From Somniosus microcephalus (taxonomy: Eukaryota): 64,000 bases of DNA. The DNA lies in assembly GCA_052327205.1 (NCBI GenBank), contig CM126204.1:57350001-57414000 (forward strand), read 5' to 3'. Both the position numbers and the translations under genes were made by a program. Shown piece by piece: positions 165 to 34,927 of this stretch. Position 1 is the first letter of the stretch. Every line of letters begins with the position of its first letter. The notes beneath the pieces are model-generated. The model ran no database searches. It was not told the DNA's origin and saw only the letters and a list, made by a program, of their open reading frames with translations.

Positions 165-357
165 TGTTGTGTCCGTGTATAATAAGACACAGACAGCAGG
201 AGAACGGTACAACAGGTGTTTACTCAACGTGGCTCACACTGGAACTGAACCTGTACAGATTACTACTCAGTGCTATATACAGGTGTGGTCACTGCCGGTA
301 CTGCAGTATACATGAGCTGTAAAAGATAGTTCCCCCCTTAAAGGTATATACATTACA
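165..357 (-). repeat. 3' LTR of Gypsy A
   Basis: TGTTGTGTCC...CATTACA; about 5 substitutions versus 5014-5206. Adjacent polypurine tract at 358-371 (minus strand AAAAGGGGAGGAAT). Confidence 0.96.
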
Positions 358-466
358 ATTCCTCCCCTTTTAGATTAACAGTACCATAACACTCATTTAA
401 CAATTAAATATCAAACTAATTACAATTAAAACTTTTAACATGCAACATTAGCTGAAAATAGTCTAT

Positions 467-3400
467 TTATATATTCAGTCTTTGGGGAGGCTTCCTGATC
501 CTTTCTGGATAGCGCCATTCCCGAGTGTCTTGCTCTTGGTGCGGAGGCGATTCTGGCCCCCTGTCGTCGGTTGGTTCATCAGCTTCCGATGCTACTGTTT
601 CTGGGGTAGATGCGACCTGTACGTCGGGTTCATCACCAGGTACGTATGGGCGAGGCATGGGGCTGACTTGTTCCTGTGACTCTAGGATCTGGTCAGCATG
701 GCATCTCACGATGCTCTCCCCAACGTCCACTGTGTACATTAGTGGGCCCTGCCGTGTGCATATCGTTCCTGGCTGCCATTTTTCTGTTCGGTAGTCGCGG
801 GTCAAGACTGGTTGTCCTACATTGAAGCTCCTTGTTGGCTTCTCATGGATGTGCTGGAATTGCTTACTCTCAAAATCTCTTCGTACGTTTGGTCTGAGCA
901 AATCCAGGCGAGATCTTAACCTTCGGTTAAAGAACATCATGGCTGGGGCCTGGTTGGTGACTGCATGTGTCGCATTCTGGTAGGCGAACAGGAAATTGTC
1001 CACCTTGTGCTGCAGCGGAATGTTGTCATTGTACATAGCCTTTATTGCCTTCTTAAAGGTTTGTACGAACCTCTCAGCCAATCCATTTGTGGCTGGATGA
1101 TACGGGGCGGATGTGTAATGCCTTACCCCATTCTTTTTCAAGAACCTCCGGAACTCTTCGGACACAAACTGTGGTCCGTTGTCGGAGCAAATCTGTTCTG
1201 GCAAGCCATTCCTGGCAAAAATGGTCCGTAGGACTGCAATAGTTTTCTCAGTGGTGGTGGAGGACATTTTGATGACCTCAGGCCATTTCGAGTGCGCATC
1301 CACGGCTATTAAAAACATTGAGTCCATGAATGGACCAGCAAAATCAATATGCACCCGTTGCCATGGAGAGGAGGGCCACTCCCATGGGTGTAGAGGGGCC
1401 TGTGGTGGTGCATTTTGGACTTTCTGGCATCCTGAGCAGCTCTTGGTCAGGTCCTCAATTTGTTTATCGATTCCCGGCCACCACACATAAGCCCTGGCTA
1501 GGCTTTCCATTTTTACCCCTCCCAGATGACCCTCATGAAGCTCATTGAGCACTCTATCCCTTAACTTGGGTAGAATTACCACTCGGGATCCACACATCAA
1601 GGTCCCCCGGCACACTGACAGCTGTTCTCTCCTTGTCGAGAATGCTGGCAACAGTGAGTCGCCATGTGCTGGCCATCCCTTCACCGTCAAATCATATACC
1701 CGAGACAGTGTCGGGTCATTTCGGGTTTCCTTTTCGATACAAGCGTTAGTTACCGGCAGGTATTCAACTATAGTCGAATGGAATATTTCGACAGGATCCA
1801 CTGCTGATGCTTCCTCCGCAGTAGGCAGTGGCAGGCGTGATAGCCCATCAGCATTTCCATGCTGTTTCGTGCCCTTATATTCAATCTCATAGTGGTGCGC
1901 CCCTAGAAAAAGTGACCATCTTTGTAGTCGTTGCGCAGTCATCACCGGAACGCCCTTCTTTGGATTAAAAATGGAGACAAGAGGCTGGTGATCAGTCAGC
2001 AAGGTGAATTTCTGCCCGTGCAGATAGTGATTGTACTTTTTCACTCCCCACACTAGGCTGAGGGCCTCCCTGTCAATCTCGGCATAGTTACGCTCGGCTG
2101 AGGTTAGTGATCGTGACGCAAAGGCTATTGGCCTCTCTGAGCCGTCCGAGAATTTATGCGACAGCACCGCTCCAATGCCGTAGGGTGACGCATCACATGC
2201 CAACCGAATTGGTAATGCTGGGTTGTAATGGGCCAATACCTCTTTCGATGTGATTAGTGTTTTGCTCTTCTGGAAAGCTCGTCTACATTCGTCACTCCAC
2301 TTCCATGGCACTCCAGTTTGCAGTAGGGTGTTCAGTGGGTGTAGTATTGTAGACAAATTTGGCAAGAACTTATGGTAGTAGTTTACCAGCCCGAGGAACG
2401 ACCTCAGTTGTGACACATTTTCCGGTGCTGGAGCCTTGACTACTGCCTCAATCTTCTCTGGGGACTTATGTAACCCCTCTTTATCGATAATGTGGCCACA
2501 ATACGAGATCTGTTTTCTAAAAAACTCGCATTTGGGGCGGTTAGCTCGGAGCCCATATTCCTGCAATCTAGTGAGCACCTGCTCCAGGTTGGCAAGGTGA
2601 TCACTGTCATTTTCGCCCGTGACCAGGATGTCGTCCAAATAACACTGGGTCCCTGGGATCCCTTGCAGGACTTGTTCCATTGCCCTCTGCCAAATAGCCG
2701 GAGCTGATGCTACCCTGAATACCAGCCGGTTGTATTGGTAGAGACCTTTATGGGTGTTGATTGTGAGGTATTTTTTTGATGCTTCTTCTACCTCCATTTA
2801 CAGATATGCCTGGGCCAGATCAATCTTAGTGAAGCGTTTCCCTCCAGATAGCGAGGCGAAAATATCTTCAATCCGCGGAAGTGGATATTGTACGGTGTGA
2901 AGGACCGGGTTCACTGTTACCTTAAAGTCCCCACAGATGCGAACCTTCTTTGGTTCCCCAGGCGTGCTGCTCAACTACTTTTTCATCACAGGGACGATGG
3001 GTGTAGCCCACTCGCTCCAGTCTACCTTGGACAGTACACCTGAACGTTCCAGACTCTCCAGCTCTGCTTCGACGGCTGGGCGGATCGCATAAGGTACCGG
3101 TCTGGCCTTAAAAAATTTTGGGCTTGCGTTTTCTTCAATTTTAATCGTCGCTGTCATGCCTTTTAGTGTTCTGAGTCCTTGCTGGAACACTTCTTTCGCG
3201 TCAGTTAGGATCTTTGACAGTCGCCCAGGTGTGACGTCGTCATCCTTTTTGTCAGCCAAAGTCAGTGCCTGTATGGAGTGCCAATCCAGTTGTATTTTCC
3301 GGATCCATTCACGTCCCAGTAATGGTGGTCCTCCATCTTGCAATACATACAGGTCTAGTTTTGGTGTTTCCTTACCGTTATATATAACGGTCACCCTTAT

Positions 3401-4420
3401 TTTTCCTTTGGGGTAGACTTTTTGCCCCGTGTATGTCTTCAAAATAATTTTTGTGTCTCTCAAGGGTATGTGTGAGAATAGCCGCTCGTAGTCCCGTCGG
3501 TTTATGACTGTTAGGGCTGATCCTGTGTCCAATTCCATCTTTGCCTGGACTCCTGCTATCTTGAGAGTGACCCAAATGGTTCGGTGATCCTCCGTTGTGA
3601 TCACATTATGTAGTTTCAGACAACTCAGTTCCCTGCTTTCGGAGTCGTTATCACTCTTTTGTTTGTCTGAACTATTCTCCGTCATCTTATGTACCTTCTT
3701 GTACTTTTCTTTGGTAGGTTTCTTATTGCTGGTTTTCTTTCCTGACCTGCAGAGTCGTGCTATGTGTCCTACTTTTCCACACTGTCTGCACACTTTGTCT
3801 TTGAACCAGCAATCATTCTGGTCGTGTGTTGTTCTGCCGCAGCGATAGCACTTCTCTGTTCCATATGACATTTCGTTTGTGCCATATTCTTGCGGTCTCT
3901 GTTGTATCTCTGCAGCGCCCCGTGCTGCTGCTTCATATGATACCGCAATGCTGAAAGCCTTTTCCAGCGTAAGGTCCTTTTCAGATAAAAGCCGTTTCTG
4001 GGTTCCTTCACTTTGAAGCCCACACACAAAATTGTCCCTTAAGGTATCTGCCAGTCCTGCTACAAACTGGCAGTGTTTCGATAGTTTGCGCAGTTCTGTT
4101 GAATAATTAGCATTGCTTTCATCCTTATGCTGGTTCCGTTTGTGAAACTTGAATCTTTCTGCTATCAGCAGTGGTGTGGGGTTTAAATGTTCCTTTAGTA
4201 TCGTTACTATGTCTTCAAAACTCTTTTCCATTGGCTTCGTTGGGGTTACTAGATTTCGTAATAAACCATACGTCTTTGCACCCATTAAATTTAACAATAC
4301 CGACGCTTTCTTGTCATCTGACACCTCATTTGCCTTGCAGTGTACCTCTATTCGTTCGACATATGTAGTCCAATCTTCGACTTCATTGTCAAATGCGGTG
4401 ATACTGCCACTCTTTGGCAT
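467..4420 (-). pseudogene. Gypsy A single-frame gag-pol with two nonsense codons
   Basis: ORFs 2975-4420 and 467-2797 share a frame, split by TAG (2975-2977) and TAA (2798-2800). Two CCHC knuckles (CYRCGRTTHDQNDC, CRQCGKVGHIARLC), protease LDTGS, RT YLDD, RNase H CDAS, integrase zinc finger and DDE core (HIDFAGP, SDNG, NGLAERF). Confidence 0.95.
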
Positions 4421-5000
4421 TTTGGGTGTGGTTTAAAATGGCGTCTCCCAATGGCTTAAAATGGCATCTCCCGCGCTTTCCTTCCTCCCCTGCTGCTGCC
4501 AACGCCGCTCCCGGCGGTTCTCGTGGCAATGGCGGCGCCCTGTAGGTTTCGCGCGCTTCTCCTGCGCTGCTGCCAACGCCGCTCTCGGCGGTCCTCGTGG
4601 CAATGGCGGCGCCTCGCGGGTTTCTGTGCGTCTCTCTCTCCCTCTCTTCGACGCTGCTCGGCCCCTGAACACCGGCTGCGCCCTGTGCGCTCTGCCCTCT
4701 CTCTCTCTCCCCCGTCGACGCTGCTCGGCCCTTTGCTGTGCCGCTCGGTCGGGCTCTAGCCCGCCGCTGTCCGGGAAGGGTCTGCGCACTACCTGTTGCC
4801 AGCCTGTTTCGCTGGACCACCTCGACTGGAAAGCCAAGCCTGGCTCTCGACAGCCTCCCCTGCAATTCTCAAGTCTCTGCTGGATGACTGGGCGGTTGCC
4901 CGTGGTCGATGCCCGAGTCTCTGGCCTTGACCTCCAATCCACTGATCTCCAGGAACAAATCCCCGGGAGGTGATGCAGAGTTGCAGGTAGGTTCGAACTT

Positions 5001-5013
5001 GCCTTGTCGCCAA
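5001..5013 (-). promoter_or_regulatory. primer-binding site of Gypsy A
   Basis: TTGGCGACAAGGC immediately inside the 5' LTR; the TGG complements the tRNA CCA end. Confidence 0.8.
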
Positions 5014-5206
5014 TGTTGTGTCCGTGTATAATAAGACACAGACTGCAGGAGAACGGTACAACAGGTGTTTACTCAACGTGGCTCACACTGGAACTGAATC
5101 TGTAGAGATTACTACTCAGTGCTTTATACAGGTGTGGTCACTGCCGGTACTGCAGTATACATGAGCTGTAAAAGATAGTTCCCCCCTTAAAGGTATATAC
5201 ATCACA
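5014..5206 (-). repeat. 5' LTR of Gypsy A
   Basis: Direct repeat of 165-357. Confidence 0.96.
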
Positions 5207-5760
5207 ATGAGCACCACCATGTTGCAGATGATGGCGACTGTAGGCTCTTTCATGGAAAGGATGGCCACCTGCATGGAGCAGCTAATGCGCCACTCACAGA
5301 AGCACATGGTCTCTATAGAGGACAGAGGCTCATAGACCTCCTCTCTAGAAGGGATGTCATTGTAGACTTGGGTCCTCATGGCCCCACTGATGTGCAGTAA
5401 GGTGCTCTCCAGCTCCTTGCTAGCAGGGAAGTTCAGGTGGCCCATGAGAGGGATGATGGTGAGAGGGGACATTGAAGTGGAGGCTCCTCTCATAGCACTC
5501 ACACTTCTCCCCCATTGCCTCCCCCTTAGTCAGAGTCCCAGATGCCTCCTGGGATCGCGATAGCCCAGTCTGTCCCTGCACAGTCACAGGAGGAGCAGAC
5601 TTTGCTGGGGCCATCAGAGGCTCCAAAACCCAGAGGACATCCACCAAAAGTGTCTATGCAGTTGCAGCAGGGAAGTGAGCAGCCTGCCTCTACCTCCGCT
5701 GAAGCCACAGGGGTTGCACCTCCTAGAAGCACGCGTAAAAGAAACATGACACAGAAGTAG
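5207..5760 (+). pseudogene. Harbinger A Myb/SANT-partner gene, remainder of last exon (degenerate)
   Basis: Continues the frame of 1-164 as STTMLQMMATVGSFMERMATCMEQ... and ends ...GVAPPRSTRKRNMTQK*, like GPTLRRSTGVGK at the end of the Harbinger B gene. Stops and frameshifts present. Confidence 0.65.
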
Positions 5761-7683: not shown

Positions 7684-8904
7684 TGTAGAAAAGTGGGGGG
7701 AGAAGTTTAGGTGGGGAAGGTGGGGTGTGATTTTGGTTGCCCCTGGGGTTTGTCTCTGGCCAGTCAGAAGTATCTGAGCTGCTTCAGGCCCCGTGCGGTT
7801 TCGAATCGCTCCCCTTTCTGGTTCTGACCGCCGGACTTATTTCAGTGGCGATGTAGACAAAACGAGACTCGTGGTTGGGTGCAAAGAAGATCAGTATTTA
7901 TTGAAATAAAGAATAAATTGAAAATAATGATGAATACAGCACACTTTTACTTAATACAGCACACCTTTGCTTAATACAGCACACTTTTGCTTAATACAGC
8001 ACACTTTTACTTAATACAGCACACTTTTGCTTAATGGGGAGGAGAAACGGACACATCGAGGGAAAATTGACTAAAATTACAATTTAACAAAATTCCCCTT
8101 TAATTCCCACCCCTTATACCTATCTAGGTTGCCTTGTAATGGGTCAGAAAGCTTATGCTCACCAGTGAACACCTGCTCCGTGCCCCTGCGGTCTGTCTTA
8201 GATTCTTCACCGCCCCAAAGTAGAGAGAACCCAGTAATTCAAAAGTAACTGCTGGTATTCCACTTCTTTGGGCGGGCTGTTGAGCTGTTCCTCTTGTAGG
8301 CAGGGCATCGGAAGCAAGGCGGCAGAGAGAGAGAGAATGGCTTCCTGAGGGGCTATCTTTATACCCCATTGGGAGCTGTTATCTTCGCGCCCAAATCTGG
8401 ATGTATCTGGGCTATAAAAAAGGGACCGATCTGTCCCCATTGACTGTAATGGGTTTGAATGTGTTTCCCATTTGTTTAAACTGGTTTGTGCTCAGTTTAA
8501 AATGTCTCAAGTGCTGGACAAACAAATCCTTAAGTGTTCAGTCAACAGCACTCAAGTGCTTTGTAAACAATCCATTGTCCTGTGGTCACCGCCCAACCGC
8601 AACTGATTGACAGCTTCAAGTGCTTAAGCCCTTGAGTCAACATTGTAGAGAGCTCGTGTAAACAAACAATCCTTTTGTTCCTCTGTTGAACTTCCTAAAC
8701 CGCAGTTGATTGACAGTTTAAGTACCTCAAGTACTTCAGTCAGTGATGGAAGATGTTCAGACAGGCTGCCTTTGTCTTCTGCCACGAGGCCTGACAGCCA
8801 TTTTTGATGCCCTGGGTTTTTAAGGTACATTCCAACCAGGTTTTCTTTTAATCAAATAATCTTCGAGGGCTGCAGAAATTTCCAAAATTTGGGGAAACCT
8901 TACA
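7684..8904 (-). repeat. 3' LTR of the retrovirus-like element
   Basis: TGTAGAAA...CTTACA, highly similar to 15719-16956. Confidence 0.95.
7933..8032. repeat. 20-bp minisatellite x5 inside the LTR (AATACAGCACACTTTTRCTT)
   Basis: Directly visible tandem array; six copies in the partner LTR (15965-16084). Confidence 0.95.
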
Positions 8905-9095
8905 GTCCTCCCTAGGATACTAAAACTTGCTTGTAGTATCCTGTTCAAAGGTGAGCAATAATTTCTGACACCCCACAAACAATCTTCCCTTATACTTATC
9001 TATATCTATCTTTGATCCCGCGACACCTCCATCTCCCCTACCCAGAGAGAATTGCAGTACACGGTAGGCATCTATCGACAGAAAAACATGATTAG

Positions 9096-9192
9096 TTACA
9101 ATAATTCAAACATGGAGGGGGTCCAATGCCCCTGCACCACTGAGTATTTACAATAATTCAAGCATGGAGGGGTCCAATGCCCCCGCACCACT
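9096..9192. repeat. about 51-bp tandem duplication in the 3' untranslated region of the LTR element
   Basis: TTACAATAATTCAARCATGGAGGGG(G)TCCAATGCCCCYGCACCACT occurs twice. Confidence 0.85.
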
Positions 9193-9887
9193 TGTGACAT
9201 AGTTTTAACATGATACAACATCTTTAATAGAATTACCACCAAGCCAAAACATATCTGTTAAAAATGCAAATGGAAGAAAACGAGCTTCGTTTTTTTATAA
9301 TGCAATTGTCTGACACTTTAATAAATGGCACCATTCTTCAGCCATAAATGTATTTCAAACTTCCACAATCTACGAACACAACAATTCACAAGCATATGCA
9401 ATTTGTTCAATTGACTCTAAACAAGTAGTACAATCTCACAGTTAGGAACTAAATTCGCACATTATTTCCTTTGGAGTTGGGACCAGTACATAATACAAAA
9501 TATAAAATAATTAACAAGCTTTTTGTAAACTCTTAATCTTAATCTGGATTTCCAATAACAGTTTAATTGCTGTGGGCATCTGCCTCCTGCAGACCCCTCC
9601 CTCGTGGGCTAGGGGTGCTCCCTTCCCCGAGCATCCAAAGACACGATGGTCCTCTGCACCTCCCGAAACTCTGAAAAAGACTTTAAAAAACATCTAGCCA
9701 GGTTCCCTGGCTCGGGGGAATGTGATCGGGTCCCGCGACCTCGGCTCACATAGACAACATTCTGGAACGGTACCATACTTAAACCTTATACTCTAATAAT
9801 TAACACTACCGAATTGCAATATAAGATTAAAATTAACACATTCTAACTTAATCCTCTATACACGTTACTTGTCTCTGGGCAGCCAGC

Positions 9888-11144
9888 CTAATCCCTGTCT
9901 GGACTGTTGCAGGCTTCTCCCTGCGGCGTGGCAGGACTGGTCCCAACTTCGCGTCCCTCGCAGCTTATGGCTGCTGGTTGGGGACTTCTGTCTTTTGGCT
10001 TTTCCCTGACTCGGGAGGCCGCCCTATTCCGCTGGAAAGTGGGTGACCATACTTTCTTGGGCTGGGGTACCCAAAGAGACCTCCTAGGGAGTGTCGCTGG
10101 TGGGGCTACCCTGGCGAATGGACCCTTAGCTCGGGTCACACTCCTTGCTGGCTGGGGACCTTCTCCCTTGGGTCCCTCCCTTCCCAAACCTGGGCTGGGG
10201 ACAGGCAATCCCATGCCACCGGCTGCCGATGGCTGAGAGTCTTCCCCTTCAGGTCTAAAACCTGGTTCAGGCTCCTCCCCGGAGTCCCACAAGAGAGGGG
10301 GAATCGCTCGGGCCAAGTGCTGGGGAACTTCTCCCTTCACGCATGCGACTGCGCCTGCATGTGCAGTCTGTGTGAGTGTACGCACTGCAGGCTGAGGATT
10401 ACTAATCTCAGGTACAATCCCAGCTGCCTGTTTCCCTGCCTCCGGCTTAAACAATTTGCATTGTTTAATATAACTAGCAGCCTGCCAGTAGCTCTGTTCT
10501 GAACCCTCTTCCCTTACCAGGGCGGCCTTAAAGGCGGAATCTTGGGCTTGGACCTGCTTTTGGTCTGGGGCCAAAGCTATCCCCTGTGTGCCTCCCTTGT
10601 CCTGGATTGCTGCTACTGGACCTGCTCTACAGGGGTCCCAGAGCTTTCCTTCCCTGTCCCCCTGCTTAAACAACTTACACTGGTCATGAATGGTTCCTCC
10701 CCTAACACAAGCCACAGCGCCTGCCTGTGCAGCCTGTGAGCTTGTACCCGCTGCAGGCTAAGGATTTCTGACCTCGGGTTCACTCCCAGCTGCTCGTTTC
10801 CCTGCCTCCGGCTTAAACAACTTGCATTGTTTAATATAACTAGCAGCCTGCCAGTAACCCTGTTCTAACTCCTTTCTCCTTACCAGGGCGGCCTTAAAGG
10901 CAGAATCTTGGGCTTGGACCCGCTTTTGGTCCAGGGCCAAAGCTATCCCCTGTGTGCCTCCCTTGTCCTGGATTGCTGCTACCGGACCTGATCTACAGGG
11001 GTCCCAGAACTCTCCTTCCCTGTCCCCCTGCATGGCCACCTCATTGGCCTTGTGGTTACCCTCCCACGTGGTATGGAGGGATCCTAAACCTATGGCCAAA
11101 GGTTTTGACCTTTCCCTAGCCTGCTCGTTCCCTGTGGATCCCAT
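9888..11144 (-). pseudogene. Repeat-expanded Pro/Ala/Gly-rich ORF following the protease, in place of RT
   Basis: ORFs 10758-11144 and 9888-10715 share a frame, separated by one TAG where the other repeat copy has CAG. Contains a duplication with about 366-bp period (10351-10665 vs 10717-11031). No RT motifs. Confidence 0.6.
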
Positions 11145-11329
11145 TAAGCTAAATGGGACCTTGTTGACCGGGGTGAATTGGTCAGGTCCTCCGAATGGAC
11201 CACCGTGCTGGAAGCTCCAGTGTCCACCGAATATCTCCCCTGCACCGTCTTCACCTCCATCTTAACATAGGGCCTGCTTCCCTCAGCATTTTTGCGGGGA
11301 CACAGGTCGACAGGCTGCGCTGGCTCTAG
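11050..11329 (-). pseudogene. retropepsin-type aspartic protease, in frame after the gag stop, then frameshifted
   Basis: Reads LEPAQPVDLCPRKNAEGSRPYVKMEVKTVQGRYSVDTGASSTVVHSED (DTGAS at 11210-11224). A probable second half, PFSLMGSTGNEQARERSKPLAIGLG, lies in a shifted frame. Confidence 0.8.
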
Positions 11330-12890
11330 TCATTGCTGGGAGTGGGGTGGGGCAGACGGGGTCAAAGCACCGGTGGTGGCTGCTACTCTCCCCTGGCCAG
11401 TCAGAAGAGACCGTAGGGACTGTAAAAATGACTCGATCGCAGCGGGAGGGATATCTGGCCCTGCCTTTTGGGCTGGGGCTGTGGGATCCTTTCTCTTGTT
11501 ATCCTTCCAGGGATTCTTACAGTCTTTTCTCCAGTGACCGTCTTTCCCGCACCCATAACAATTTAACCTAGCCTGGGAGGGACGGTTCCCCTCCTGGTGC
11601 CACCCTTTCTTACTCTGGCTCCTAGGTTTAACCTCATGGACTTTCCCCTTGGGTTGGGGCGCCTCGCTACACCTCATGTTTCCAAAGGCTACTGTGAGCC
11701 GGCGGATCACCGCTTCTTCGGTGGTCTGGGGGTTTCGGGGGTCAAACCAAGCTGCGACCTGGGCTTGGATCTGGGGTAGGCTGTTTGTCATAAGACAACG
11801 GAGCCAGTGAGTCAATTGGACTGGGTCCAGTGCTGCCCGCCCTGGCATTCCCGGGCATGCGCTCCGGTAGACTGGCCACAGCCTGTCTGCGAACGCCTGC
11901 GGGGACTCCCCTGGGAGCTGCACCGTTCTTTCTACCCGGGTGAACGGACTACCATCATTGAGTCCCATGGCCTCCAATATCTCATTCCTCAGATCCTCAT
12001 AATCCTTCTGCCCCCTTTTGCACTCGCCAGATAGGGTCTGGAGGAGATCACCTCCCAGGGAAAACAGCAGCATTTTTGCTTGCTCTGCGTCATCGCAGTC
12101 ATTAACACAAGCTGCTTGTTCTATCTCCCTGAAGTGCAGTGAGGGGTCTCACTTTTTAGTGAACTTGGGGATGTGGCTAACCATGTCCCTAAGCTGGTGG
12201 GTGCCATACAGCACCACAAACTGATTCTGGATGGCCCCTGGGTCATCGCCATCAACGGGCGGACCATACCTCCATTGTTGGAGGGGGTACACTGGTCCTG
12301 GTCCCGGCCTATCTAGCAGGGCCTGCTGTGCTTCCTCTACCAGCTCATCCTCCACCCCCCTTTGCTGCCAGAGCTCCTGAAAGCTCGGAGCTGTGGGTGG
12401 CGGTCGTGGGACCTCTGATTCCCTAACCAACCTTGTCCTGGGTGTTGCCTGGGGGACGGTTCTATTTGGGTTGCCAGTAAAGTCCGACTGACCTGCTTTC
12501 GGGCTGATAAGACATATCATCCCCTTTGCCCTCTTTAAAGCCACATTCAAGCTTTCTATCTCTTCCCTACAGGGGCCATGATCTGCTTCCTCAAACCTTT
12601 GGTCGCAGGCCAGCTTATACGCTGCCTTTACCTGCCTAACCTTTTCCTCCTGCTCTTTTACTTCTTGTATGAGGCGGGCGTTCTCCTCCCGCACCCTCAT
12701 CTCATTGCTCTTGGCCTCTGCAACTAGGCACTTCAGGTACTCTAACTCGTACCTCGTGTGGCTTTTGCCCTAACTGAACTGGTCCACCAGGTGCTCTATC
12801 TTGGCCTGGTATTCCTCAATCTCCATTTCCTTATCCCAACTCTCTGCTTTAACTTCCCTAAGCCTGCAGGAACCTAACCACAAACAGATC
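11330..12890 (-). pseudogene. Gag: coiled coil, capsid-like region, CCHC knuckle; 5' end lost, two internal stops
   Basis: ORFs 12149-12700 and 11330-12073 share a frame (TGA at 12149-12151; another TAG near 12771). MHR-like QLPGESPQAFADRL; knuckle CYGCGKDGHWRKDC; PTAP, PTAP and PSAP motifs. Confidence 0.88.
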
Positions 12891-12959
12891 AGTTGGATAA
12901 AAAGAAAACCAATAACTGCTGCTCACTCCAGACCCAGACCACTGTCTGCTACATCGCAT

Positions 12960-13622
12960 TGTAGCGGTTCGTGTAGATCGCCACTAAATAAGAGAGTTTG
13001 ACTTCGACGAACTATAAATAAGTTGTTTATTTACAGGAACAGACTAATTACAGCAGGTAAGATGGCTGACTGTAGGAGCACCGTGGTGTAGGTCTTGTCC
13101 CAGCGGGGACTCCACGAGGACTGAGTTCGCAGTCCTGTGGGGAGCGTGATGACGTCATCGCGTTTGTGTTGTGACGTCATCACGTTGCTCGCGTTTCCCG
13201 TGCTTAGGGCGTCACGTGATGCGCGTCGTTGCGTCACTGGCCGTTGAGGCCGAGGTCGCGAGGCCGGGCTGTGCCGGTGCTTGCCGCGGGAGTGGAAGAT
13301 CGCGTCGCTCCCATCGGCTGGCCGTTGAGGCCGAAGATGCTAGGCCGGGCTGTGCCGGTGCTTGTCGCGGGAGCGGAAGATCGCGTCGCTCCCGTCGGCT
13401 GGCCGTTGAGGCCGAAGACGCTAGGCCGGGCTGTGCCGGCGCACGCACATCACGTTGTACGTGACGTGACGTCAGCATGCTAGGGCGTGTCTTAAAGGAG
13501 CAATGGCCCCAACAGGTAAGTTAAAAGGGCAACGGCCCCAAAAGGTAAGTTAAACATACAGTAAGTTAAGTTAAAGGGAATTATGTGTCTCAATGTAAGG
13601 GACAACCAGTGGTACCGCCACA
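12960..13622 (-). repeat. 3' LTR of the nested element, with internal GC-rich tandem repeats
   Basis: Carries one more internal repeat unit (CTGGCCGTTGAGGCCG... starts at about 13238, 13318, 13399) and one more short duplication than the 5' LTR. Confidence 0.93.
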
Positions 13623-15118
13623 AATGCCCCCCCCCAGAATTCGCTTTAACGAAAGTCCAAGGATGAGATGGTCTGACGAGCTGGTGGTCACGGCGGACGA
13701 GCTGGTGGTCACGGCGGTCGTGCTGTCTCGACTTGGTAGGCGAGGTATGAAGATGCTGCTCGTGAGCGGATCCTTACGCGCGTTGTGGCGAATAAAACGT
13801 ATCCGTCAGGCGAAGGACTGTGGAGACGTGCGAAACAGCAGGCCTTGTCAGAGTGACGGGCAGGTTGGGCGGACGCGGGCGATGTCTCCGTTGATGTTGA
13901 AACAAGTCCTTGTTCCGACGAAATCTGCAGGAACGCCGACGGGCGATCCAGGAGGACTTGACTGGTGAGGTCGGTGAACTCGCCGACAGGTGAGCGAAAC
14001 CTTTGGGAGGCTGGAATGCACGGAACGGTGCGTGCCATAGTGCTACGATGATAACACAACGGAGGGTGAAGAGTTGCTGCGTTGATCAGTGATCGGTGAG
14101 GCCAGCAACTTTCACGTGGCTGATCGCGGCCGCAGGATGCCCGTTGGACCCGTCCTCTGTGTGCAGCTTCAGTAGACGTTTGCGTTTGGTAAAGGGAAAA
14201 CTGGATAAAGGGCAGCAACGGTCCAGGTTGTTGTTGCTTTCGGGCGGGGTAAACTCTGCCTGGAGGGCGTCAACACTTGTAACAGTTGTAGATTTAGGAG
14301 AAAACAGCCGGGAGGGCGGCATGCTTTTGTTCACGCCAAATCGTGTAGTAGGTAACACAACCAGCAGGCTGAAGGGCTGGTGCGTCTTCGGCGGAGAAGG
14401 GGTCATCGTTTCGCATGAGGGATGGGTCGTCGTGGTTCGCGAGGGATGGGTCCTCGTGCACGAGGAGTGCGTCCTCATGTTTCACAGGGGTAAGTCCTCG
14501 TGGTATCCCCGCGGGGCGCGCTCCGATCTTGTGGGCCCGAACATGCTGTACCCCATGCTTGGAGAGATGTATACTTGCTGTTGCTTTGGACATAGAGGCG
14601 GACGATCCGTGTGGCGGTAGAAGAGTCGAATATGGAGACCGTGAGCACGTGAGTGGTCTGTGCCGCATCGATGGTCTCGGCGAACAGGGCTTCTTCCTTC
14701 ATAAAGCACGAGGGAGACCGTGGCTCCCTGGATTGTGGTAGTGACAGCAGAACGGCTGATGCTTCCATAGCGTGCTTCGTTTGTGAAAGACGTTCACAAA
14801 CCCACCAATTGTAGCGCTGGTGGACGACGGTTGCCGTTGGTCGTGCTCTACATCTGTGAAATTGTTCGTGAAAAACGGGCTCACCTCCAAGCTGCGCTTC
14901 CATTGCGAAGACGTTCGCAAAGACGGGGTCGCTTTTGGTGGAATCGGTATTAGACGGTTGCTGTTCCGTGGTTGTTCGTCGGTTGTGCGTTGGTTGTCTT
15001 GTGGGAAGACGAGGGTCAGGCTGCGCGTTGCTACCGTGAAAATCATTCACGGATACGGGTTCACCAATTGTAGCGTTGGAATTGATGAGCTCCCGTACTC
15101 ACGTCGTGGGGTCACCAA

Positions 15119-15680
15119 TGTAGCGGTTCGTGTAGATCACCACTAAATAAGAGAGTTTGACTTCGAACTATAAATAAGTTGTTTATTTACAGGAACGGAC
15201 TAATTACAGCAGGTAAGATGGCAGGTAAGATGGCTGACTGTAGGAGCACCGTGGTGTAGGTCTTGTCCCAGCGGGGACTCCACGAGGACTGAGTTCGCAG
15301 CCCTGTGGGGAGCGTGATGACGTCATCGCGTTTGTGTTGTGACGTCATCACGTTGCTCGCGTTTCCCGCACTTAGGGCGTCACGTGATGCGCGTCGTTGC
15401 GTTGCTGGCCATTGAGGCCGAGGTCACGAGGCCGGGCTGTGCTGGTGCTTGCCGCGGGAGCGGAAGATCGCGTCGCTCCCGTCGGCTGGCCGTTGAGGCC
15501 AAAGACACTAGGCCGGGCTGTGCCGGCGCACGCACATCACGTTGTACGTGACGTGACGTCCGCGCGCTAGGGCGCATCTTAAAGGGGCAATGGCCCCAAC
15601 AGGTAAGTTAAACATACAGTAAGGTAAGTTAAAGGGAATTATGTGTCTCAATGTAAGGGACAACCAGTGGTATCGCCACA
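15119..15680 (-). repeat. 5' LTR of the nested element
   Basis: Direct repeat of 12960-13622, about 100 bp shorter. Confidence 0.93.
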
Positions 15681-15718
15681 GCATACTGTTGCCGACGGTC
15701 CTGCTGCGGTCGTCATTT

Positions 15719-16956
15719 TTTAGAAAGGGGGGGTTAGGTTAGGTGGGGAAGGTGGGGTGTGATTTTGGTTGCCCCTGGGGTTTGTCTCTGGCCAGTCAGA
15801 AGTATGTGAGCTGCTCCAGGCCCCGTGCGGTTTCGAATCGCTCCCCTTTCTGGTTCTGACTGCCGGACTTATTTCAGTAGCGATGTAGACAAAACGAGAC
15901 TCGTGGTTGGGTGCAAAGAAGACCAGTATTTATTGAAATAAAGAATAAATTGAAAATAATGATGAATACAGCACACTTTTACTTAATACAGCACACCTTT
16001 GCTTAATACAGCACACCTTTACTTAATACAGCACACGTTTGCTTAATACAGCACACTTTTACTTAATACAGCACACTTTTGCTTAATGGGGAGGAGAAAC
16101 GGACACATCGAGGGAAAATTGACTAAAATTACAATTTAACAAAATTCCCCTTTAATTCCCACCCCTTATACCTATCTAGGTTGCCTTGTAATGGGCCAAA
16201 AAGCTTATGCTCACCAGTGAATGCCTGCTCCGTGCCCTTGCGGTCTGTCTTAGATTCTTCACCGCCCCGAAGTAGAGATACCCCAGTAATTCAAAAGTAA
16301 CTGCTGGTATTCCACTTCTTTTGGCGGGCTGTTGCGCTGTTCCTCTTGTAGGCAGGGCATCAGAAGCAAGGTGGCAGAGAGAGAGAGAATGGCTTCCTGA
16401 GGGGCTATCTTTATACCCCATTGGGAGCCATTATCTTCGCACCCAAATCTGGATGTATCTGGGCTATACAAAAGGGACCAATCTGTCCCCATTGACTGTA
16501 ATGGGTTTGAATGTGTTTCCCATTCGTTTAAACTGGTTTGTGCTCAGTTTAAAATGTCTCAAGTGCTGGACAAACAAATCCTTAAGTGTTCAGTCAACAG
16601 CACTCAAGTGCTTTGTAAACAATCCATTGCCTTGTGGTCACCGCCCAACCACAACTGATTGACAGCTTCAAGTGCTTAAGCCCTTGAGTCAACATTGTAG
16701 AGAGCTCGTGTAAACAAACAATCCTTTTGTTCCTCTGTTGAACTTCCTAAACCGCACTTGATTGACAGTTTTAAGTACCTCAAGTACTTTAGTCAGTGAT
16801 GGGAGATGTCCAGACAGGCTGCATTTGTCTTCTGCCACGAGGCCTGACAGCCATTTTGATGCCCTGGGTTTTTAAGGTACATTCCAACCAGGTTTTCTTT
16901 TAATCAAATAATCTTCGGGGGCTGCAGAAATTTCCAAAATTTTGCGAAACCTTACA
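15719..16956 (-). repeat. 5' LTR of the retrovirus-like element
   Basis: Repeat of 7684-8904; left terminus mutated from TG to TT; ends CTTACA followed by TSD CTCG. Confidence 0.93.
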
Positions 16957-23980: not shown

Positions 23981-24256
23981 TGTTGAGGTACCGCGGCAAA
24001 CGTGGGAGTCAAGACCAGAGTTGATGGAACACAACTGCTTTAATTTACATCATGGCAAAAACAAGTGCTTAAAAAGCCCGCGCAACCACTTAAATACTCC
24101 CCAGACAGGAAGTGCTCCCGGCAGCCTGTCCCTGCGGGAAACAAGTTGCCGGAGGAAAGGGCCCACGGCTGGGGGTGGCTGCTGCCGGCAGTGCGCCTGC
24201 GTAAACTGTCTGTGCCGCCGTGAGCGGATTATGTCCAATGGTGGCGTGTCGCCACA
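23981..24256 (-). repeat. 3' LTR of Gypsy B
   Basis: TGTTGAG...CGCCACA direct repeat. Confidence 0.96.
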
Positions 24257-24276
24257 GAGCTCCCCCCAGAATCCGC

Positions 24277-27200
24277 TTAGGAGGAGTGGACGAGTCGTGA
24301 CGGTGGTCTAATGGTTCTGCCGGAGCGGCTCTGAGTGGCCGCCGGTCTAGTTGGTGGGGCCGGGCGGTTCACCGCCGGCTGTGCTAGCTTGCTGGCGGGA
24401 CGGCCTCTAGTTGGAGGTCGGGCCACGGGGACCTGTTCCCCTGGTTCTATGTGTGCTGGTTTGAGTCGGTCGATGGAGACCGTTTCGACCCTGTCGCCGA
24501 GTTGCAGCTTGAAGACCTTGTCCCCAGTTTGTAGGACCTCGTACGGTCCGTCGTACAGGGGTCGCAGGGGTCCATGGTGTGCGTCGTGTCGCACGAAGAC
24601 GAAGCGTGCCTGCTGTAAGTTTGGCGGAACGTGAGGTGCGAGTTCGCCGTGTCGGTTGACCGGAAGTGGGGCGAACTGTTGAGCGGAAGAGAAAGAGTTG
24701 AGCCGCTGCTGTTCGGCCAACCAAGGCGTGGTAGCCTCCGGGAGGAATTCGCCTGGTACGTGCAGCGGTTGTCCGTAGACTAACTCCGCCGCTGAGGACT
24801 GGAGGTCTTCCTTGACCGCGGTGCGTAGGCCTAGTAGCACCCACGGTAGGCGGTCAGTCCAGGTACAGTCCTGCAGGCTGGCGCGGAGTGAGGCCTTGAG
24901 TGACCTATGGAAACGTTCACACAGCCCGTTGGCCTGCGGGTGGTACGCCGTGGTTCGGTGGAGCGTCACCCCGAGGTTGCGTGCTGTGGCCGTCCAGAGT
25001 TCGGAGGTGAACTGGGCGCCTCTATCGGAGGTTATATCGGCCGGTACGCCGAACCTCGCGACCCAGGTGTTAACGAACGCCCTGGCGATGTCGGCTGTGG
25101 TGGTGGAGGTCAACGGCACTGCCTCAGGCCAGCGTGTGTAGCGGTCGACCATCGTGAGAAGATAAGTTTGGCCTTGCGATGGCGGCAGAGGACCGACGAT
25201 GTCGACGTGTACGTGGTCAAAGCGGCGGCTGGGTACCTCAAAGTCTCCCAGGGGTGCTTTTGTGTGCAGCTGCACCTTAGCCCATTGGCAGGCGAGGCAG
25301 GAGTTGGCCAAAGTCTGAACATCTTTGCTGAGGCCGCGCCAGACGAAGCGCTGGGAGAGGAGTTTAACAGATGCGCGGGAGCCCGGATGGGAGAGCCTGT
25401 GGAGCGCGTCGAAGATGCGGCGGCGCCAGGTTGCAGGGACGACCGGCCTGGGTTGGCCGAGTGAGACATCGCAAGTGACTGCCGTGGCTTCGGGCCCATG
25501 CACGACCTTGGCTAGGCGTAGCCCTGGCAGGCTGGTAGCCGCCGAGAGGAGGTCTGGGTCCGTGAGCTGGGCCGCTGCTAGTTGTGCGTAGTCAACCGCT
25601 AGGTGATTCGCGCAGATGGCGGGATGGGAAAGGCAGTCGGCGACAACGTTGTCTCTACTGGAGACGTGCTGGATGTCCGTGGTAAACTCGGACACGGCCG
25701 CGAGCTGGCGTTGCTGCCAAGCGGACCAAGGGTCGGTGTTCTTGGCCATCGCGTATGTGAGCGGCTTGTGGTCCACGTACGCGGTAAAGGAGCGGCCCTC
25801 CAAGAGGAACCTGAAATGGCGGACCGACAGGTGGAGCGCGAGGAACTCACGGTCGAAAGTAGAGTATTTGACCTCCGGGGGGTGCAGTTGGCGACTGTAG
25901 AAGGCAAGTGGCTGCCACGCGCCATTGACCCACTGCTCGAACACGGCTCCGACCGCATGGTCAGAGGCGTCGGTGGTGAGCGCAACCTGGGCATCGGCCC
26001 TCGGGTGCACGAGCAGGGTGGCGTCGGCGAGCGCGTTTTTGGTGGCGTCGAAGGCGGCTGACGTGTCAGCGGTCCAGACTACGGCCATCTTGCCGGACTT
26101 ACCTCGAAGGGAATCGTATAGGGGCTTCATGAGGGCTGCAGCTCTGGGGATGAACCTGTTGTAAAAGTTCACCATCCCAAGGAACTCCTGGAGGCCCTTG
26201 ATGGTTTTAGGGCGGGGGAATTGCTGGACGTCCTGCACCTTGTTGGGCAGGGGGACGGCCCCAGCAGGGGTGATGTGGTGGCCGAGAAAATCGATCTCGG
26301 CTAGGCCGAATTGGCACTTCGCCGGGCTGAGGATAAGCCCATGTTGGGCTAGGCGCCCAAACAAGATGCGAAGGTGTTCGAGGTGTTCCTGTTTGGAGGA
26401 GCTGGCCACAAGAATGTCATCTAGATAGACGAATAGAAAGTTCAGGTCCCGGAGGACTGAGTCCATAAGGCGCTGGAAAGCCTGGGCTGCATTCTTGAGG
26501 CCAAAGGGCATCCTCAGGAACTCTAACAGGTCGAATGGGGTGATGACGGCCGTTTTGGGGATGTCCGCGGGGTGTACGGGGACTTGGTGGTAACTGCGCA
26601 CCAGGTCGACCTTGGAGAAGACGGTTCGTCCGGCCAGTCGGGCCGAGAAGTCCTGGATGTGCGGCACCGGGTATCGGTCGGGGGTGGTGGCGTCGTTGAG
26701 GTGGCGGTAGTCCCCTCAGGGGCGCCAGCCTCCGCCAGGCTTGGGGGCGATGTGGAGGGGTGAGGCCCAAGGGCTGCTGGAGCGGCGGATGATGCCGAGT
26801 TGCTCCATGGTGGTGAACTCGGCCCGCGCAATTTCCAGCTTGGCCGGGTCGAGCCTGCGGGCGTGGGCAGAGACCGGGGGGCCGGAGGTGGGGATATAGT
26901 GCTCCACACCGTGTTTGGTGACTTTGGCCGAAAAGGTCGGGTTAGTGAGGGCGGGAAACTCGGCTAGTACTGCCGAGTAGTCGCCCGTGGCTCTGGCGAG
27001 GCAGTAGGTCGTCAGGCCGGCCGAACGGGCCGGGGTGACTGCGCCAGGGATGGGGGCCATAGCATTGATGTCGACGAGGCGGTGCCTCGGAATGTCAACA
27101 AGGAGGCCGTGGGCGCGTAGGAAGTCGGCGCCGATGAGTGGGCAGAGGACCTTGGCTGTGAGGAACTCCCAGCGGTAGCGGCGGCCTGCGAGGTCGAGCG

Positions 27201-28053
27201 TGACCATGCGGGTGCCGTATGTGCGGATGTCAGAGCCATTGGCTGCATCCAGCGTGACACACTGTGCACCGCGTTGGATTTCGAGGGCGGAGGCGGGGGT
27301 GATGCTGTGCTGGGCTCCTGTGTCGCACAGGAATCGGCGGTTGGTGCTGTCGTCGGTGACGTACAGTAGGGGCCCCTTTTGCCCCGCGGCCATCGTGGGG
27401 GCCGGTGCGGGGGAGGGTTTGAAAGTGCACGGTGGCGTGCAACGTTGGGCCCTAGTGCCAAAACGGGTGTGGTAGTAGCAGTGATCCAGAGTGGAAGGGC
27501 GGTCGGGCCTAGTGAGCCGGGGGGACCGCGTGGTCGTTGCCGTGAGGTCGGGCATGACGTCACGGGCGGTCTGCGCGGAGAGCAGCCGGTCGGCCTTTTC
27601 GGCTATCTCGTTCAGGTCCATGGAGCCAGACTCCACAATGAGCGGGCGGATGCTGGCGGGGAGCTGCCGAATGAAAAGCGTATGAAAGAGGGCGCCGGGT
27701 TTTTTGTCGTCCGAGAGGGACAACATGTGGGAAAGCAGGTCTGATGGTGAAGCGTCACCAAGGCCTGGGAGGTCGAGGAGTTGGCAGTTGCGCTGGTAGG
27801 AGGACGCCTGAAATTTTTTAAGGAGCGCGGCCTTCAGATGTTCGTACTTGCCTTCCTCTGGTGGATCCTGCAGCGCTGCCCAAACCTTAGGGACTGTGGC
27901 GCAGGTGAGAGAGGCGACGAGGTAGTCATACTTCGTGGCGTCGACTGTAATGCTTCTCAGCCGGAATCTGGACTCGGCTTGAACGAACCAGGCCTCGGCC
28001 AGGTTCTCCCAAAAGTCCGGTAGTTTAACCGTGACTGCATTTGTATCCACCAT
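24277..28053 (-). pseudogene. Gypsy B single-frame gag-pol with one nonsense codon
   Basis: ORFs 26716-28053 and 24277-26667 share a frame, broken by TGA in WRP*GDYR (normally WRPCGDYR). Gag KLPDFW...CYYHTRFG, protease CDTGA, RT YLDD, RNase H TDAS, integrase HVDIVGP, SDRG, NGLCERF, GPY. Confidence 0.96.
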
Positions 28054-28091
28054 GCTAGCTTAGGATTCGTTCTGAGCGTCGGGGTCACCAG

Positions 28092-28367
28092 TGTTGAGAT
28101 ACCACGGCAAACGTGGGAGTCGAGACCAGAGTTGATGGAACACAACTGCTTTAATTTACATCATGGCAAAAACAAGTGCTTAAAAAGCCCGCGCAACCAC
28201 TTAAATACTCCCCAGACAGGAAGTGCTCCCGGCAGCCTGTCCCTGTGGGAAACAAGTTGCCGGAGGAAAGGGCCCACGGCTGGGGGCGGCTGCTGCCAGC
28301 AGTGCGCCTGCGTAAACTGTCCGTGCCGCCGTGAGCGGATTATGTCCAATGGTGGTGTGTCGCCACA
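28092..28367 (-). repeat. 5' LTR of Gypsy B
   Basis: Direct repeat of 23981-24256. Confidence 0.96.
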
Positions 28368-34175: not shown

Positions 34176-34880
34176 GTGAGAGTGACCATCAGGCGGAGCA
34201 ACAAAGGCAGGCAGGTAGTGCAGGGGACCCCTGCGGACATCCCCCTTTCAAACAGGTATACCGCTTTGGATACTGTTGAGGGGGATGACTCACCAGGGGA
34301 AGGCAGCAGCAGCCAACTTCCTGGCACTGGGGGTGCTCCTGCTGCCCAGGAGGGGGGGAAAAAGAGTGGGAGAGCAATAGTGGTAGGGGATTCTATAGTA
34401 AGGGGAACAGATAGGCGTTTCTGTGGCCGCAAACGTGACTCCAGGATGGTTTGTTGCCTCCCTGGTGCCAGGGTCAAGGATGTCACTGAGCGGCTGCAGG
34501 GCATTCTGGAGGGGGAGGGTGAACAGCCAGTGGTCGTGGTCCACATTGGTACCAACGACATAGGTAAAAAGAGGGATGAGGTCCTGCATCAAGAATTTAG
34601 GGAGCTAGGTAACAGATTAAAGGGCAGGACCTCAAAGGGTGTAATCTCTGGATTACTCCCAGTGCCACGTGCTAGTAAGTATAGGAATGGGAGGATAGAG
34701 CAGATGAATGCGTGGCTAAAGAGTTGGTGTAGGGGGGAGGGTTTTACTTTCCTGGATCACTGGGCCTGCTTCTGGGAAAGGTGGGACTTGTACAAGTCGG
34801 ACGGGTTGCACCTGAACCAGAGCGGGACAAATATCCTTGCGGGGAGGTTTGCTAGCACTGTCGGGGGGGGTTTAAACTAA
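34176..34880 (+). CDS. CR1 ORF1 C-terminal part (SGNH/GDSL esterase-like domain)
   Basis: VVGDSIVR, CLPGARV, HIGTND and DGLHLN motifs. Lacks the N-terminal Cys-rich region seen in the copy at 44000-44226. Confidence 0.9.
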   Translation: MRVTIRRSNKGRQVVQGTPADIPLSNRYTALDTVEGDDSPGEGSSSQLPGTGGAPAAQEGGKKSGRAIVVGDSIVRGTDRRFCGRKRDSRMVCCLPGARVKDVTERLQGILEGEGEQPVVVVHIGTNDIGKKRDEVLHQEFRELGNRLKGRTSKGVISGLLPVPRASKYRNGRIEQMNAWLKSWCRGEGFTFLDHWACFWERWDLYKSDGLHLNQSGTNILAGRFASTVGGGLN

Positions 34881-34927
34881 CTTGGCAGGGGGATGGGATA
34901 CAGAGGGAAGCTGAAATAGGGGGGGAT

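What the first reader, a model, noticed from the sequence alone, without database searches (positions are those of the whole stretch)
11200..11340. CAA-UGA-CUAG readthrough-type stop exactly at the gag/protease junction
Seen: gag ends ...CAG CAA TGA CTA GAG (TGA at 11330-11332), and the same frame continues 35 codons to a retropepsin DTGAS motif. Established: UGA followed by CUAG is among the leakiest stop contexts in vertebrate cells and is used by alphaviruses; gamma- and epsilonretroviruses make Gag-Pol by readthrough, but of UAG. Inference: this element expresses protease by UGA readthrough. That points to a retrovirus-like or retrovirus-sister lineage (lokiretroviruses are worth comparing) and not a standard single-ORF Gypsy. 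Caveat: this copy also carries other stops that are probably mutational.
Basis: partly seen in the sequence, partly recalled or inferred. Interest (0 to 1): 0.7.

Follow-up and report, generated by a model that had tools for sequence, protein, structure and literature searches.

The report
Leaky stop in shark endogenous retrovirus
A broken copy of an abundant retrovirus-like element, in what is likely a shark genome, keeps the same stop codon between its coat gene and enzyme gene as its enzyme-carrying relatives, which likely make their enzymes by occasionally reading through that stop, though this copy's own family has lost most of the enzyme gene.

Summary
In detail: CAA-TGA-CTAG (minus strand, 11332-11330) ends gag, 35 codons before an in-frame DTG. 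The stop is inherited, not decay: TGA-CTR at 347 of 467 flank-matched sites of this family and 201 of 207 in a sister family, where sampled copies run gag-TGA-pol-env. Readthrough is the likely route to Pol there (inferred, untested). The window copy is a broken, non-autonomous derivative: half a protease, no RT. So 'this element expresses protease' fails. The relative's RT falls among retroviruses (44% identical to snakehead retrovirus) and is rejected from the lokiretrovirus clade (AU p=0.0008). 84 of 467 sites carry TGG, mostly one capsid-less subfamily (27 of 30 sampled). UGA gag-pol junctions are already reported for SSSV, ZFERV, RMEV and XtERV-S; the alphavirus-type UGA-CUA context is not listed for retroviruses in a 2026 review, yet sits in five published lokiretrovirus consensus sequences, unremarked in that paper's main text. 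This scan noted gag-UGA-CUAG-pol before in other retroelement classes. Verdict: new variant of a known kind.

The parts
15719..16956 (-). 5' LTR (1238 bp, TGTA... end), 4-bp target-site duplication CGAG at 16960-16957
   Evidence: 1177 of 1217 aligned bases identical to the 3' LTR (96.7%)
15698..15715 (-). Primer-binding site for tRNA-Arg(TCG), 3 nt after the LTR; two mismatches in this copy; the gag ATG overlaps its first bases
12960..15680 (-). Nested, unrelated 2.7-kb LTR element (LTRs 96% identical, 4-bp duplication ATGC) interrupting the first codons of gag
11333..12959 (-). gag (hydrophobic N-terminal stretch, coiled coil, capsid, one CCHC knuckle at about 11560-11519); several premature stops in this copy
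11326..11332 (-). Junction stop TGA (11332-11330) and CTAG context: type II (UGA-CUA) readthrough motif
   Evidence: motif class from PMC13517186
11063..11329 (-). N-terminal part of a retropepsin, in frame with gag (DTG at 11224-11216); C-terminal part absent in the whole family; frameshift in this copy near 11165
9888..11062 (-). Rest of the pol remnant: end of RNase H and start of integrase (partly duplicated, 366-nt repeat) and the Pol C-terminal tail, ending at the natural pol stop TAG 9890-9888; no RT
8905..9887 (-). 3' untranslated region without env, ending in a short polypurine tract
7684..8904 (-). 3' LTR (1221 bp, ...TACA end), followed by the duplication CGAG at 7683-7680

Best explanation
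The TGA-CTAG is the inherited gag-pol junction of a family of endogenous retroviruses, in which the enzyme-carrying relatives likely make Gag-Pol when a small share of ribosomes reads through this UGA, while the window copy belongs to a non-autonomous branch that has lost RT and half the protease and likely keeps the signal as a leftover. Shown: gag and pol lie in one frame split by one TGA; the stop and +4 C, +5 U are kept across five sequence families; relatives carry PR-RT-tether-RNase H-IN and env; the window family does not. Inferred: near-cognate tRNA decoding of the UGA at a few per cent, set by the UGA-CUR context and perhaps a downstream stem, fixes the Gag to Gag-Pol ratio; the window family was copied with enzymes supplied in trans.
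For: In-frame layout with a 667-codon gag frame, TGA-CTAA, a 1434-codon pol frame and an env frame in locus L063; both other frames are closed across the junction. Of 24 distinct sister-family places found with a skate Gag, 21 have TGA-CTR (14 CTAG, 5 CTAA, 2 CTGA), 2 TGG, 1 lacks the junction; their Gags are 46-48% identical to the window family's (3 aligned). Genome-wide TGA-CTR: 201 of 207 and 347 of 467. TGG is rare where pol is whole (3 sites with a looser pattern) and common only in a capsid-less subfamily. The first in-frame Met lies 23 codons after the stop, inside the protease domain, whose Pfam match starts at residue 17. No splice-type joint near the junction in RNA reads of a related species (depth about 5-18 per strand there). 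UGA-CUA is a tested readthrough context; UGACUAG supports at least about 1.3% (PMC13517186). In-frame gag-stop-pol is the layout of SnRV, Ovex1 and XtERV-S. Within the window family shared changes are skewed to silent in gag (N/S 1.35 vs 3.04 private, p=0.023) but not after the stop (3.35 vs 2.55, p=0.39), which fits a leftover.
Against: No readthrough was measured; no ribosome or peptide data. High identity among young copies inflates the genome-wide shares, and the flanks had to match exactly. The +6 base varies (A or G) and the -1 codon is free. No 3' structure was established: z -0.6 for the window, -0.9, -0.1, -2.3 and -4.2 for four relatives; the consensus stem uses the DTG codons as its 3' arm, covariation term only -2.2. 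In Tca2 a similar junction alone did not direct readthrough in a reporter (PMC2194720, abstract). Against 'leftover': all post-stop deletions seen in three non-autonomous families keep the frame to the pol stop, and 0 of 87 shared non-CpG changes make a stop in that frame. 84 of 467 sites have a sense codon.
Confidence: 0.78

Rival explanations
1. The stop is tight, and Pol is made from a separate message (spliced or from an internal promoter) or by re-initiation at the conserved Met 23 codons downstream, as in foamy viruses or as the minor promoter of Tca2.
For: An in-frame ATG in a fair Kozak context is present at the same place in 28 of 30 sampled pol-type copies and in the window. Tca2 has a junction promoter (PMC2194720 abstract).
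Against: That Met lies inside the protease fold and would cut its first strand (role of that strand from established knowledge of retropepsins). No pyrimidine-tract acceptor was found from -400 to +150 in L063, and no GT-AG joint there in RNA reads (low depth, related species). It does not explain why +4 C and +5 U are kept.
Confidence: 0.1
2. Readthrough is still used in the non-autonomous families: the minor Gag extension (or translation through to the old pol stop, which would shorten the apparent 3' UTR and protect the RNA from decay) is selected even without enzymes.
For: Three families with different pol deletions all keep the frame from the TGA to the pol stop: 358-479, 330 and 418 codons. 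15 of 27 window-family copies have a post-stop length divisible by three, and most others are one base off such a class. 0 of 87 shared non-CpG changes create a stop in frame, against 6 and 9 in the other frames. One family has a strong hairpin right after the stop (z -4.2).
Against: No amino-acid constraint after the stop (p=0.39). Some junctions lie between repeats and would be in frame anyway. Few copies per family were examined (28, about 10 and 4). The window copy itself is broken.
Confidence: 0.3
3. The UGA is recoded by A-to-I editing to a Trp codon or by selenocysteine insertion, not by near-cognate readthrough.
For: TGG is by far the commonest alternative codon (84 of 467); 3 of 30 sampled TGG copies arose outside the main clade, and 3 sites in the pol-bearing family.
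Against: 27 of 30 TGG copies are one DNA clade (support 1.0), so descent explains them. G 5' of the A is a disfavoured editing context (recalled). No SECIS search was done.
Confidence: 0.05
4. The stop is a chance nonsense mutation in a single gag-pol frame.
For: This copy has several other stops; ten Loki consensus entries have one continuous gag-pol frame.
Against: Same stop at the same place in five families and hundreds of copies; skate and second shark-like Gag proteins end at the matching position.
Confidence: 0.01

Closest known systems
Snakehead retrovirus (SnRV) and SnRV-related ERVs: clade Huo of Xu et al. 2018 (PMC6001957, passages), lineage I CmiERV of elephant shark (PMC4422223, first of two parts read)
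   Same: RT of the pol-bearing relative is 44% identical to SnRV RT over 261 residues (P0016, matched by eye to the SnRV row of the PMC7947760 supplement), with LDISNGFWSI, LPQGFH and YVDD. Gag with coiled coil and one zinc finger, gag and pol in one frame split by a stop (PMC2717909, passages). A tRNA-Arg primer for SnRV is recalled, not checked (paper not held).
   Different: SnRV's junction is UAG-GGC (PMC13517186); here UGA-CUR. The nearest RTs are amphibian and coelacanth proteins labelled 'NYNRIN-like' (50-54%), and the trees do not resolve a clade with SnRV. No accessory genes were looked for.
XtERV-S and frog ERV-S, class III (PMC8278194, passages and supplement passages)
   Same: gag and pol in frame, separated by TGA, suppression proposed. 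One related frog sequence in its supplement reads TGA-CTAG at the junction (frame read by eye).
   Different: XtERV-S itself is TGA-CAG, uses a tRNA-Ser primer, lacks a zinc finger motif in the description read, and has a class I env.
Lokiretroviruses (PMC7947760: section 5, passages, supplement parts 67-68 and searches)
   Same: Tether plus second RNase H, coiled-coil N-terminus, non-autonomous gag-only derivatives (Bhikhari; bioRxiv 2024.03.25.586437, passages). Five consensus sequences (Ofa, Cne, Pyo, Sau: TGA-CTAG; Bsp: TGA-CTAA) have the same junction in frame with protease (read by eye). Env here looks F-like by eye.
   Different: RT motif LPQG, not xPFG (24 of 24 Loki RTs); grouping with two Loki-like eel RTs rejected (AU p=0.0008 and 0.008); CCHC knuckle present; Loki were not reported from cartilaginous fishes (one table row 3 genomes, 0 hits).
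Alphavirus nsP3/nsP4 opal readthrough, Beier-Grimm type II (PMC13517186, passages)
   Same: UGA-CUA, with UGACUG as a known variant, and sense-codon variants including UGG in some strains.
   Different: Unrelated virus group; there readthrough and a 3' structure are tested, here neither.
Gamma- and epsilonretrovirus Gag-Pol readthrough (MoMLV, WDSV) and UGA cases SSSV, ZFERV, RMEV
   Same: Stop between the NC zinc knuckle and the protease DTG; same purpose.
   Different: MoMLV uses UAG-GGA plus a pseudoknot; SSSV UGAAGA, ZFERV UGACGA, RMEV UGAAGU; none UGA-CUA.

Membership tests
Retroviridae (endogenous) | Two LTRs with TG...CA ends, short target-site duplication, tRNA primer site, polypurine tract | tested here: met
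   4-bp duplications in the window and sister copies; PBS complementary to tRNA-Arg(TCG) genes of this genome
Retroviridae (endogenous) | pol order PR-RT-tether-RNase H-IN | tested here: met
   on relative L063: RVP, RVT_1, RT_RNaseH(_2), RNase_H, Integrase_H2C2, rve. The window family keeps only remnants
Retroviridae (endogenous) | RT groups with retroviruses, apart from Gypsy and Loki | tested here: met
   quick trees, SH-aLRT 95 (66 rows) and 91 (24 rows); midpoint-drawn, two Gypsy rows from the window as outsiders; reference rows unlabelled except SnRV
Retroviridae (endogenous) | env gene | tested here: met
   relatives carry an ORF of up to 804 codons with signal-like start, RQRR site and C-terminal hydrophobic stretch; absent from the window family
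SnRV-related clade (Huo / class III) | RT forms a clade with SnRV | tested here: inconclusive
   44% identity and shared motifs, but SnRV sits in a polytomy or on a neighbouring weakly supported branch
Lokiretrovirus | RT in the Loki clade, sister to all retroviruses | tested here: not met
   AU test rejects joining with P0040 and P0059 (Loki-like by motif match to the published rows, by eye): p=0.0008; with the amphibian relatives included p=0.008
Lokiretrovirus | Tether domain between RT and RNase H | tested here: met
   shared with retroviruses, so not diagnostic
Lokiretrovirus | Env related to paramyxovirus F (PF00523) | tested here: inconclusive
   PF00523 at E 0.17 and 0.2 in 2 of 9 env proteins scanned, same profile stretch, below cut-off; single-sequence fold failed (pLDDT 33); by-eye likeness to Loki-Xtr Env
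Lokiretrovirus | smc-like coiled-coil region before capsid (some members) | tested here: inconclusive
   long N-terminal helix predicted; no SMC profile match; SnRV Gag also has a coiled coil
Ty3/Gypsy (Metaviridae), single gag-pol ORF | One RNase H without tether; RT among Gypsy | tested here: not met
   two RNase H-like domains; RT 24-27% identical to the window's two Gypsy RTs
Type II (UGA-CUA) programmed readthrough | In-frame UGA followed by CUA (or CUG), conserved among relatives | tested here: met
Type II (UGA-CUA) programmed readthrough | 3' stimulatory stem-loop (conditional for UGACUA) | tested here: inconclusive
   candidate long-range stem, weak covariation, 2 of 5 sequences fold better than shuffles
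Type II (UGA-CUA) programmed readthrough | Measured readthrough product | not testable with these tools
   needs reporter, ribosome profiling or mass spectrometry

The most novel reading that the evidence does not exclude
UGA-CUR readthrough is an overlooked, widespread and possibly ancestral way of making Gag-Pol at the base of the retrovirus tree: it occurs in this shark group, a frog class III ERV and a branch of lokiretroviruses. This shark group joins a retroviral RT to a Loki-like, F-type envelope, making it a bridge between the two lineages. Its many non-autonomous offshoots form a natural experiment: they keep the leaky stop and the frame behind it while capsid is encoded, and drop the stop once capsid is lost.
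Probability: 0.25. Interest if true: 0.75.

Novelty: new variant of a known kind. Interest (0 to 1): 0.45.

Why it matters
Retroviral readthrough is taught as UAG plus a pseudoknot. A large vertebrate ERV group using the alphavirus and cellular UGA-CUA signal would widen that picture, give an easily tested reporter element, and correct annotation: gene callers start these Pol proteins at downstream codons, as in the published Loki consensus set. With tens of thousands of candidate hits in one genome (32,783 in a first look), the families allow the loss and retention of a recoding signal to be followed copy by copy. For the window copy itself the stop has no likely function.

Tried and rejected
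Lokiretrovirus membership: rejected on RT. Gypsy: rejected. CAA before the stop as part of the signal: rejected, varies between families. A frameshift route: gag and pol share a frame, the other frames are closed, and no slippery heptamer is common to all 30 copies near the stop. A 3' RNA structure: not established. Amino-acid selection on the post-stop frame: not detected; the gag part of that test for the TGG clade covered only the 5' third of gag because the local alignments stopped at the deletion. First copy tree was distorted by gag deletions; redone on the shared stretch. The careful RT tree did not finish; quick trees are cited. Profile search with the post-stop protein gave 2 weak hits, not followed. 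Env: PDB sequence search, Atlas and single-sequence fold gave nothing usable. Sequencing runs: no RNA holder listed; RNA of a related species was laid once on a relative; no read data were obtained for the window junction, so expression and editing of this family stay open. The skate junction DNA could not be fetched (protein only). PMC9447858 (NYNRIN), PMC10435555, PMC12193657 and PMC12440569 (passages) said nothing on the junction. Literature searches for this motif in vertebrate retroelements; none showed a paper on UGA-CUA readthrough in shark ERVs, but subscription papers and Repbase are not covered. The Loki supplement is cut as held; 15 of 17 'tgactag' places were seen, so five junctions is a floor.

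Full report
1. Observation. On the minus strand the window reads CAG CAA TGA CTA GAG, with TGA at 11332-11330. The frame upstream is gag (CCHC knuckle, Pfam E 3e-4; capsid fold of a sister copy nearest MLV CA, Foldseek E 8.5e-3; Atlas features of Gag/CCHC type). The same frame runs 35 codons to DTGAS and stops after 61.

2. The element. It spans 16956-7684: LTRs of 1238 and 1221 bp, 96.7% identical, TGTA...TACA ends, 4-bp duplication CGAG. The primer site is complementary to tRNA-Arg(TCG) genes of the same genome. A 2.7-kb unrelated LTR element is nested in the first codons of gag. After the TGA comes a pol remnant: residues 1-89 of the protease, then pieces matching Pol 779-870 (end of RNase H, start of integrase) and 1211-1434 (C-terminal tail) of a pol-bearing relative. 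There is no RT and no env. This is the family's normal state: none of 20 ten-kb loci has RT on the same strand between gag and the 3' LTR; the RT hits in 5 of them belong to other insertions. The window copy also has stops in gag and a frameshift about 55 codons past the junction. The genome is 6.4 Gb; nearest named Gag and Env homologues are from a skate and a sawshark, so a shark is inferred.

3. Is the stop inherited? Of the 30 closest copies 29 have TGA. To avoid choosing by likeness at the codon, the six junction bases were left free in a pattern: 467 sites, of which 347 TGA-CTR and 84 TGG. A search with the skate Gag reached other families. Of 24 distinct places, 21 have TGA-CTR, 2 TGG, 1 lacks the junction. 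One, L063, shows a 667-codon gag frame, TGA-CTAA, a 1434-codon pol frame and env. For that family 201 of 207 flank-matched sites are TGA-CTA or TGA-CTG, and a looser pattern finds 3 TGG; 30 of the 207 were opened and 25 show the second protease motif at the expected place, RT was checked only in the ten-kb loci. Across 11 aligned junctions TGACT is invariant, +6 and +7 are purines and the codon before the stop varies. The skate Gag and a second database Gag end at the matching position; their DNA was not seen. Caveat: copies are young, so the shares mostly reflect descent; the argument for selection is conservation between families whose Gags are 46-48% identical to the window family's.

4. 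The TGG copies. 27 of 30 sampled TGG copies form one clade (support 1.0, junction codon masked). They are short elements that have lost capsid and knuckle. About 22 of the 84 sites lie in tandem arrays. Three sampled TGG copies arose separately. So the stop is lost mainly where neither particle nor enzymes are encoded, which fits a signal that sets a Gag to Gag-Pol ratio. It does not refute readthrough in the pol-bearing family.

5. How Pol is likely made. gag and pol share a frame and the other two frames are closed, so a single frameshift cannot join them. The first Met after the stop is 23 codons on, inside the protease domain. RNA reads of a related species cover the whole relative at low depth on both strands and show no GT-AG joint near the junction; this is weak evidence. 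UGA-CUA is the type II motif, tested in alphaviruses, with basal readthrough of at least about 1.3% for UGACUAG, and UGACUG is a known variant (PMC13517186, passages). Readthrough by a near-cognate tRNA is therefore the best reading, inferred and not measured. A 3' stem is possible but not shown. Tca2 warns that such a junction can fail in a reporter (PMC2194720, abstract; lead from an earlier scan note).

6. What the stop does in the window family. Readthrough could only add half a protease and scraps. Among 28 TGA copies, shared non-CpG changes are skewed to silent in gag (N/S 1.35 against 3.04 for private changes, p=0.023) but not after the stop (3.35 against 2.55, p=0.39). That points to a leftover. 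Against it, the frame to the old pol stop is kept in three families with different deletions, and no shared non-CpG change makes a stop in it (0 of 87). Selection for an open frame, not for its sequence, remains possible (30%).

7. Lineage. The relative's Pol has PR, RT, a tether, a second RNase H and integrase. Its RT reads LPQGFHNSP and YVDD. Nearest database RTs are amphibian and coelacanth proteins at 50-54%; SnRV is at 44%; Loki-like eel proteins at 34-39%; the window's Gypsy RTs at 24-27%. Two quick trees place it inside the retroviruses (SH-aLRT 95 and 91). AU tests reject a clade with the Loki-like rows (p=0.0008; 0.008). All 24 published Loki RTs have xPFG. A clade with SnRV is not resolved. 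It is best filed as an endogenous retrovirus near the SnRV-related clade Huo (PMC6001957, passages), already known from elephant shark (PMC4422223). The env is ambiguous: F-like by eye and by a sub-threshold Pfam match in 2 of 9 proteins.

8. Comparison with what is known. The 2026 review lists retroviral junctions as UAG (gamma, WDSV, SnRV UAGGGC) and UGA in SSSV (UGAAGA), ZFERV (UGACGA) and RMEV (UGAAGU). XtERV-S has gag-TGA-pol with suppression proposed; its context is TGA-CAG, and a related frog sequence has TGA-CTAG. Five Loki consensus sequences have TGA-CTA in frame with protease (frames read by eye), without comment in the main text; ten other Loki entries have one continuous frame. 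Searches found no paper on UGA-CUA readthrough in these groups; the library lacks most subscription journals. Earlier notes of this scan report gag-UGA-CUAG-pol in copia and DIRS elements of other genomes; they were not checked and are not evidence.

9. Verdict. Real feature; known mechanism; a context not listed for retroviruses in the papers seen; no function likely in this copy. New variant of a known kind, interest 0.45.

Noticed in passing
L111-L140, L150-L155 (same family as the window element): A subfamily of short LTR elements (about 4-5.5 kb, LTR pairs 93-97% alike) has TGG at the junction and has lost capsid and zinc knuckle by deletions that mostly keep the frame (876, 102 and 54 nt). 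It forms one clade (27 of 30 sampled). One member sits in a 3.6-kb head-to-tail array.
   Followed up: partly
window 12959-12860 (minus) and L031: The env-less window family has a transmembrane-like stretch at the Gag N-terminus (Kyte-Doolittle 2.1-2.2 over 19 residues) that the env-bearing relative and the two database Gags lack (0.7-1.2). It recalls the ER-targeting Gag of IAP elements (recalled, untested).
   Followed up: partly
window 15716-15698 (minus), L063:1784: The gag reading frame opens with an ATG that overlaps the first bases of the tRNA-Arg(TCG) primer site, in frame with gag in both families; the annotated skate Gag starts at the same place.
   Followed up: partly
L063:8127-9998, L061:4791-7205: Env of the relatives has an RQRR site, a weak Ig-like match and a weak paramyxovirus F match (E 0.17-0.2), and looks by eye like the published Loki-Xtr Env, although the RT is retroviral.
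   Followed up: partly
PMC7947760 supplement (not a locus): Loki-Ofa, -Cne, -Pyo, -Sau (TGA-CTAG) and -Bsp (TGA-CTAA) have gag and protease in frame across one stop; the authors start pol at downstream TTG/CTG codons, and the main text has no hit for 'stop codon', 'readthrough' or 'read-through'.
   Followed up: partly
L061, L062, L073, L076, L079: Two more non-autonomous sister families, one keeping gag and env without any enzyme (LTRs 98.7-99.2% alike), one keeping a whole protease without RT; both keep the frame from the TGA to the pol stop.
   Followed up: partly
window 12960-15680: Nested small LTR element with 81-nt repeats in its LTRs and no Pfam match in the three internal frames scanned.
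   Followed up: no
window 165-5208 and 23981-28367: Two ordinary Gypsy LTR retrotransposons with long gag-pro and RT-RH-IN frames; used only as outsiders in the RT trees.
   Followed up: no
window 34856-37798, 40306-41346, 55597-56754: LINE endonuclease-RT frames and a DDE_Tnp_4 (Harbinger-type) transposase frame.
   Followed up: no
L147-L149 (G000 C35): Hundreds of tRNA-Arg(TCG) genes in 1.6-kb tandem units, 349 pattern matches genome-wide.
   Followed up: no
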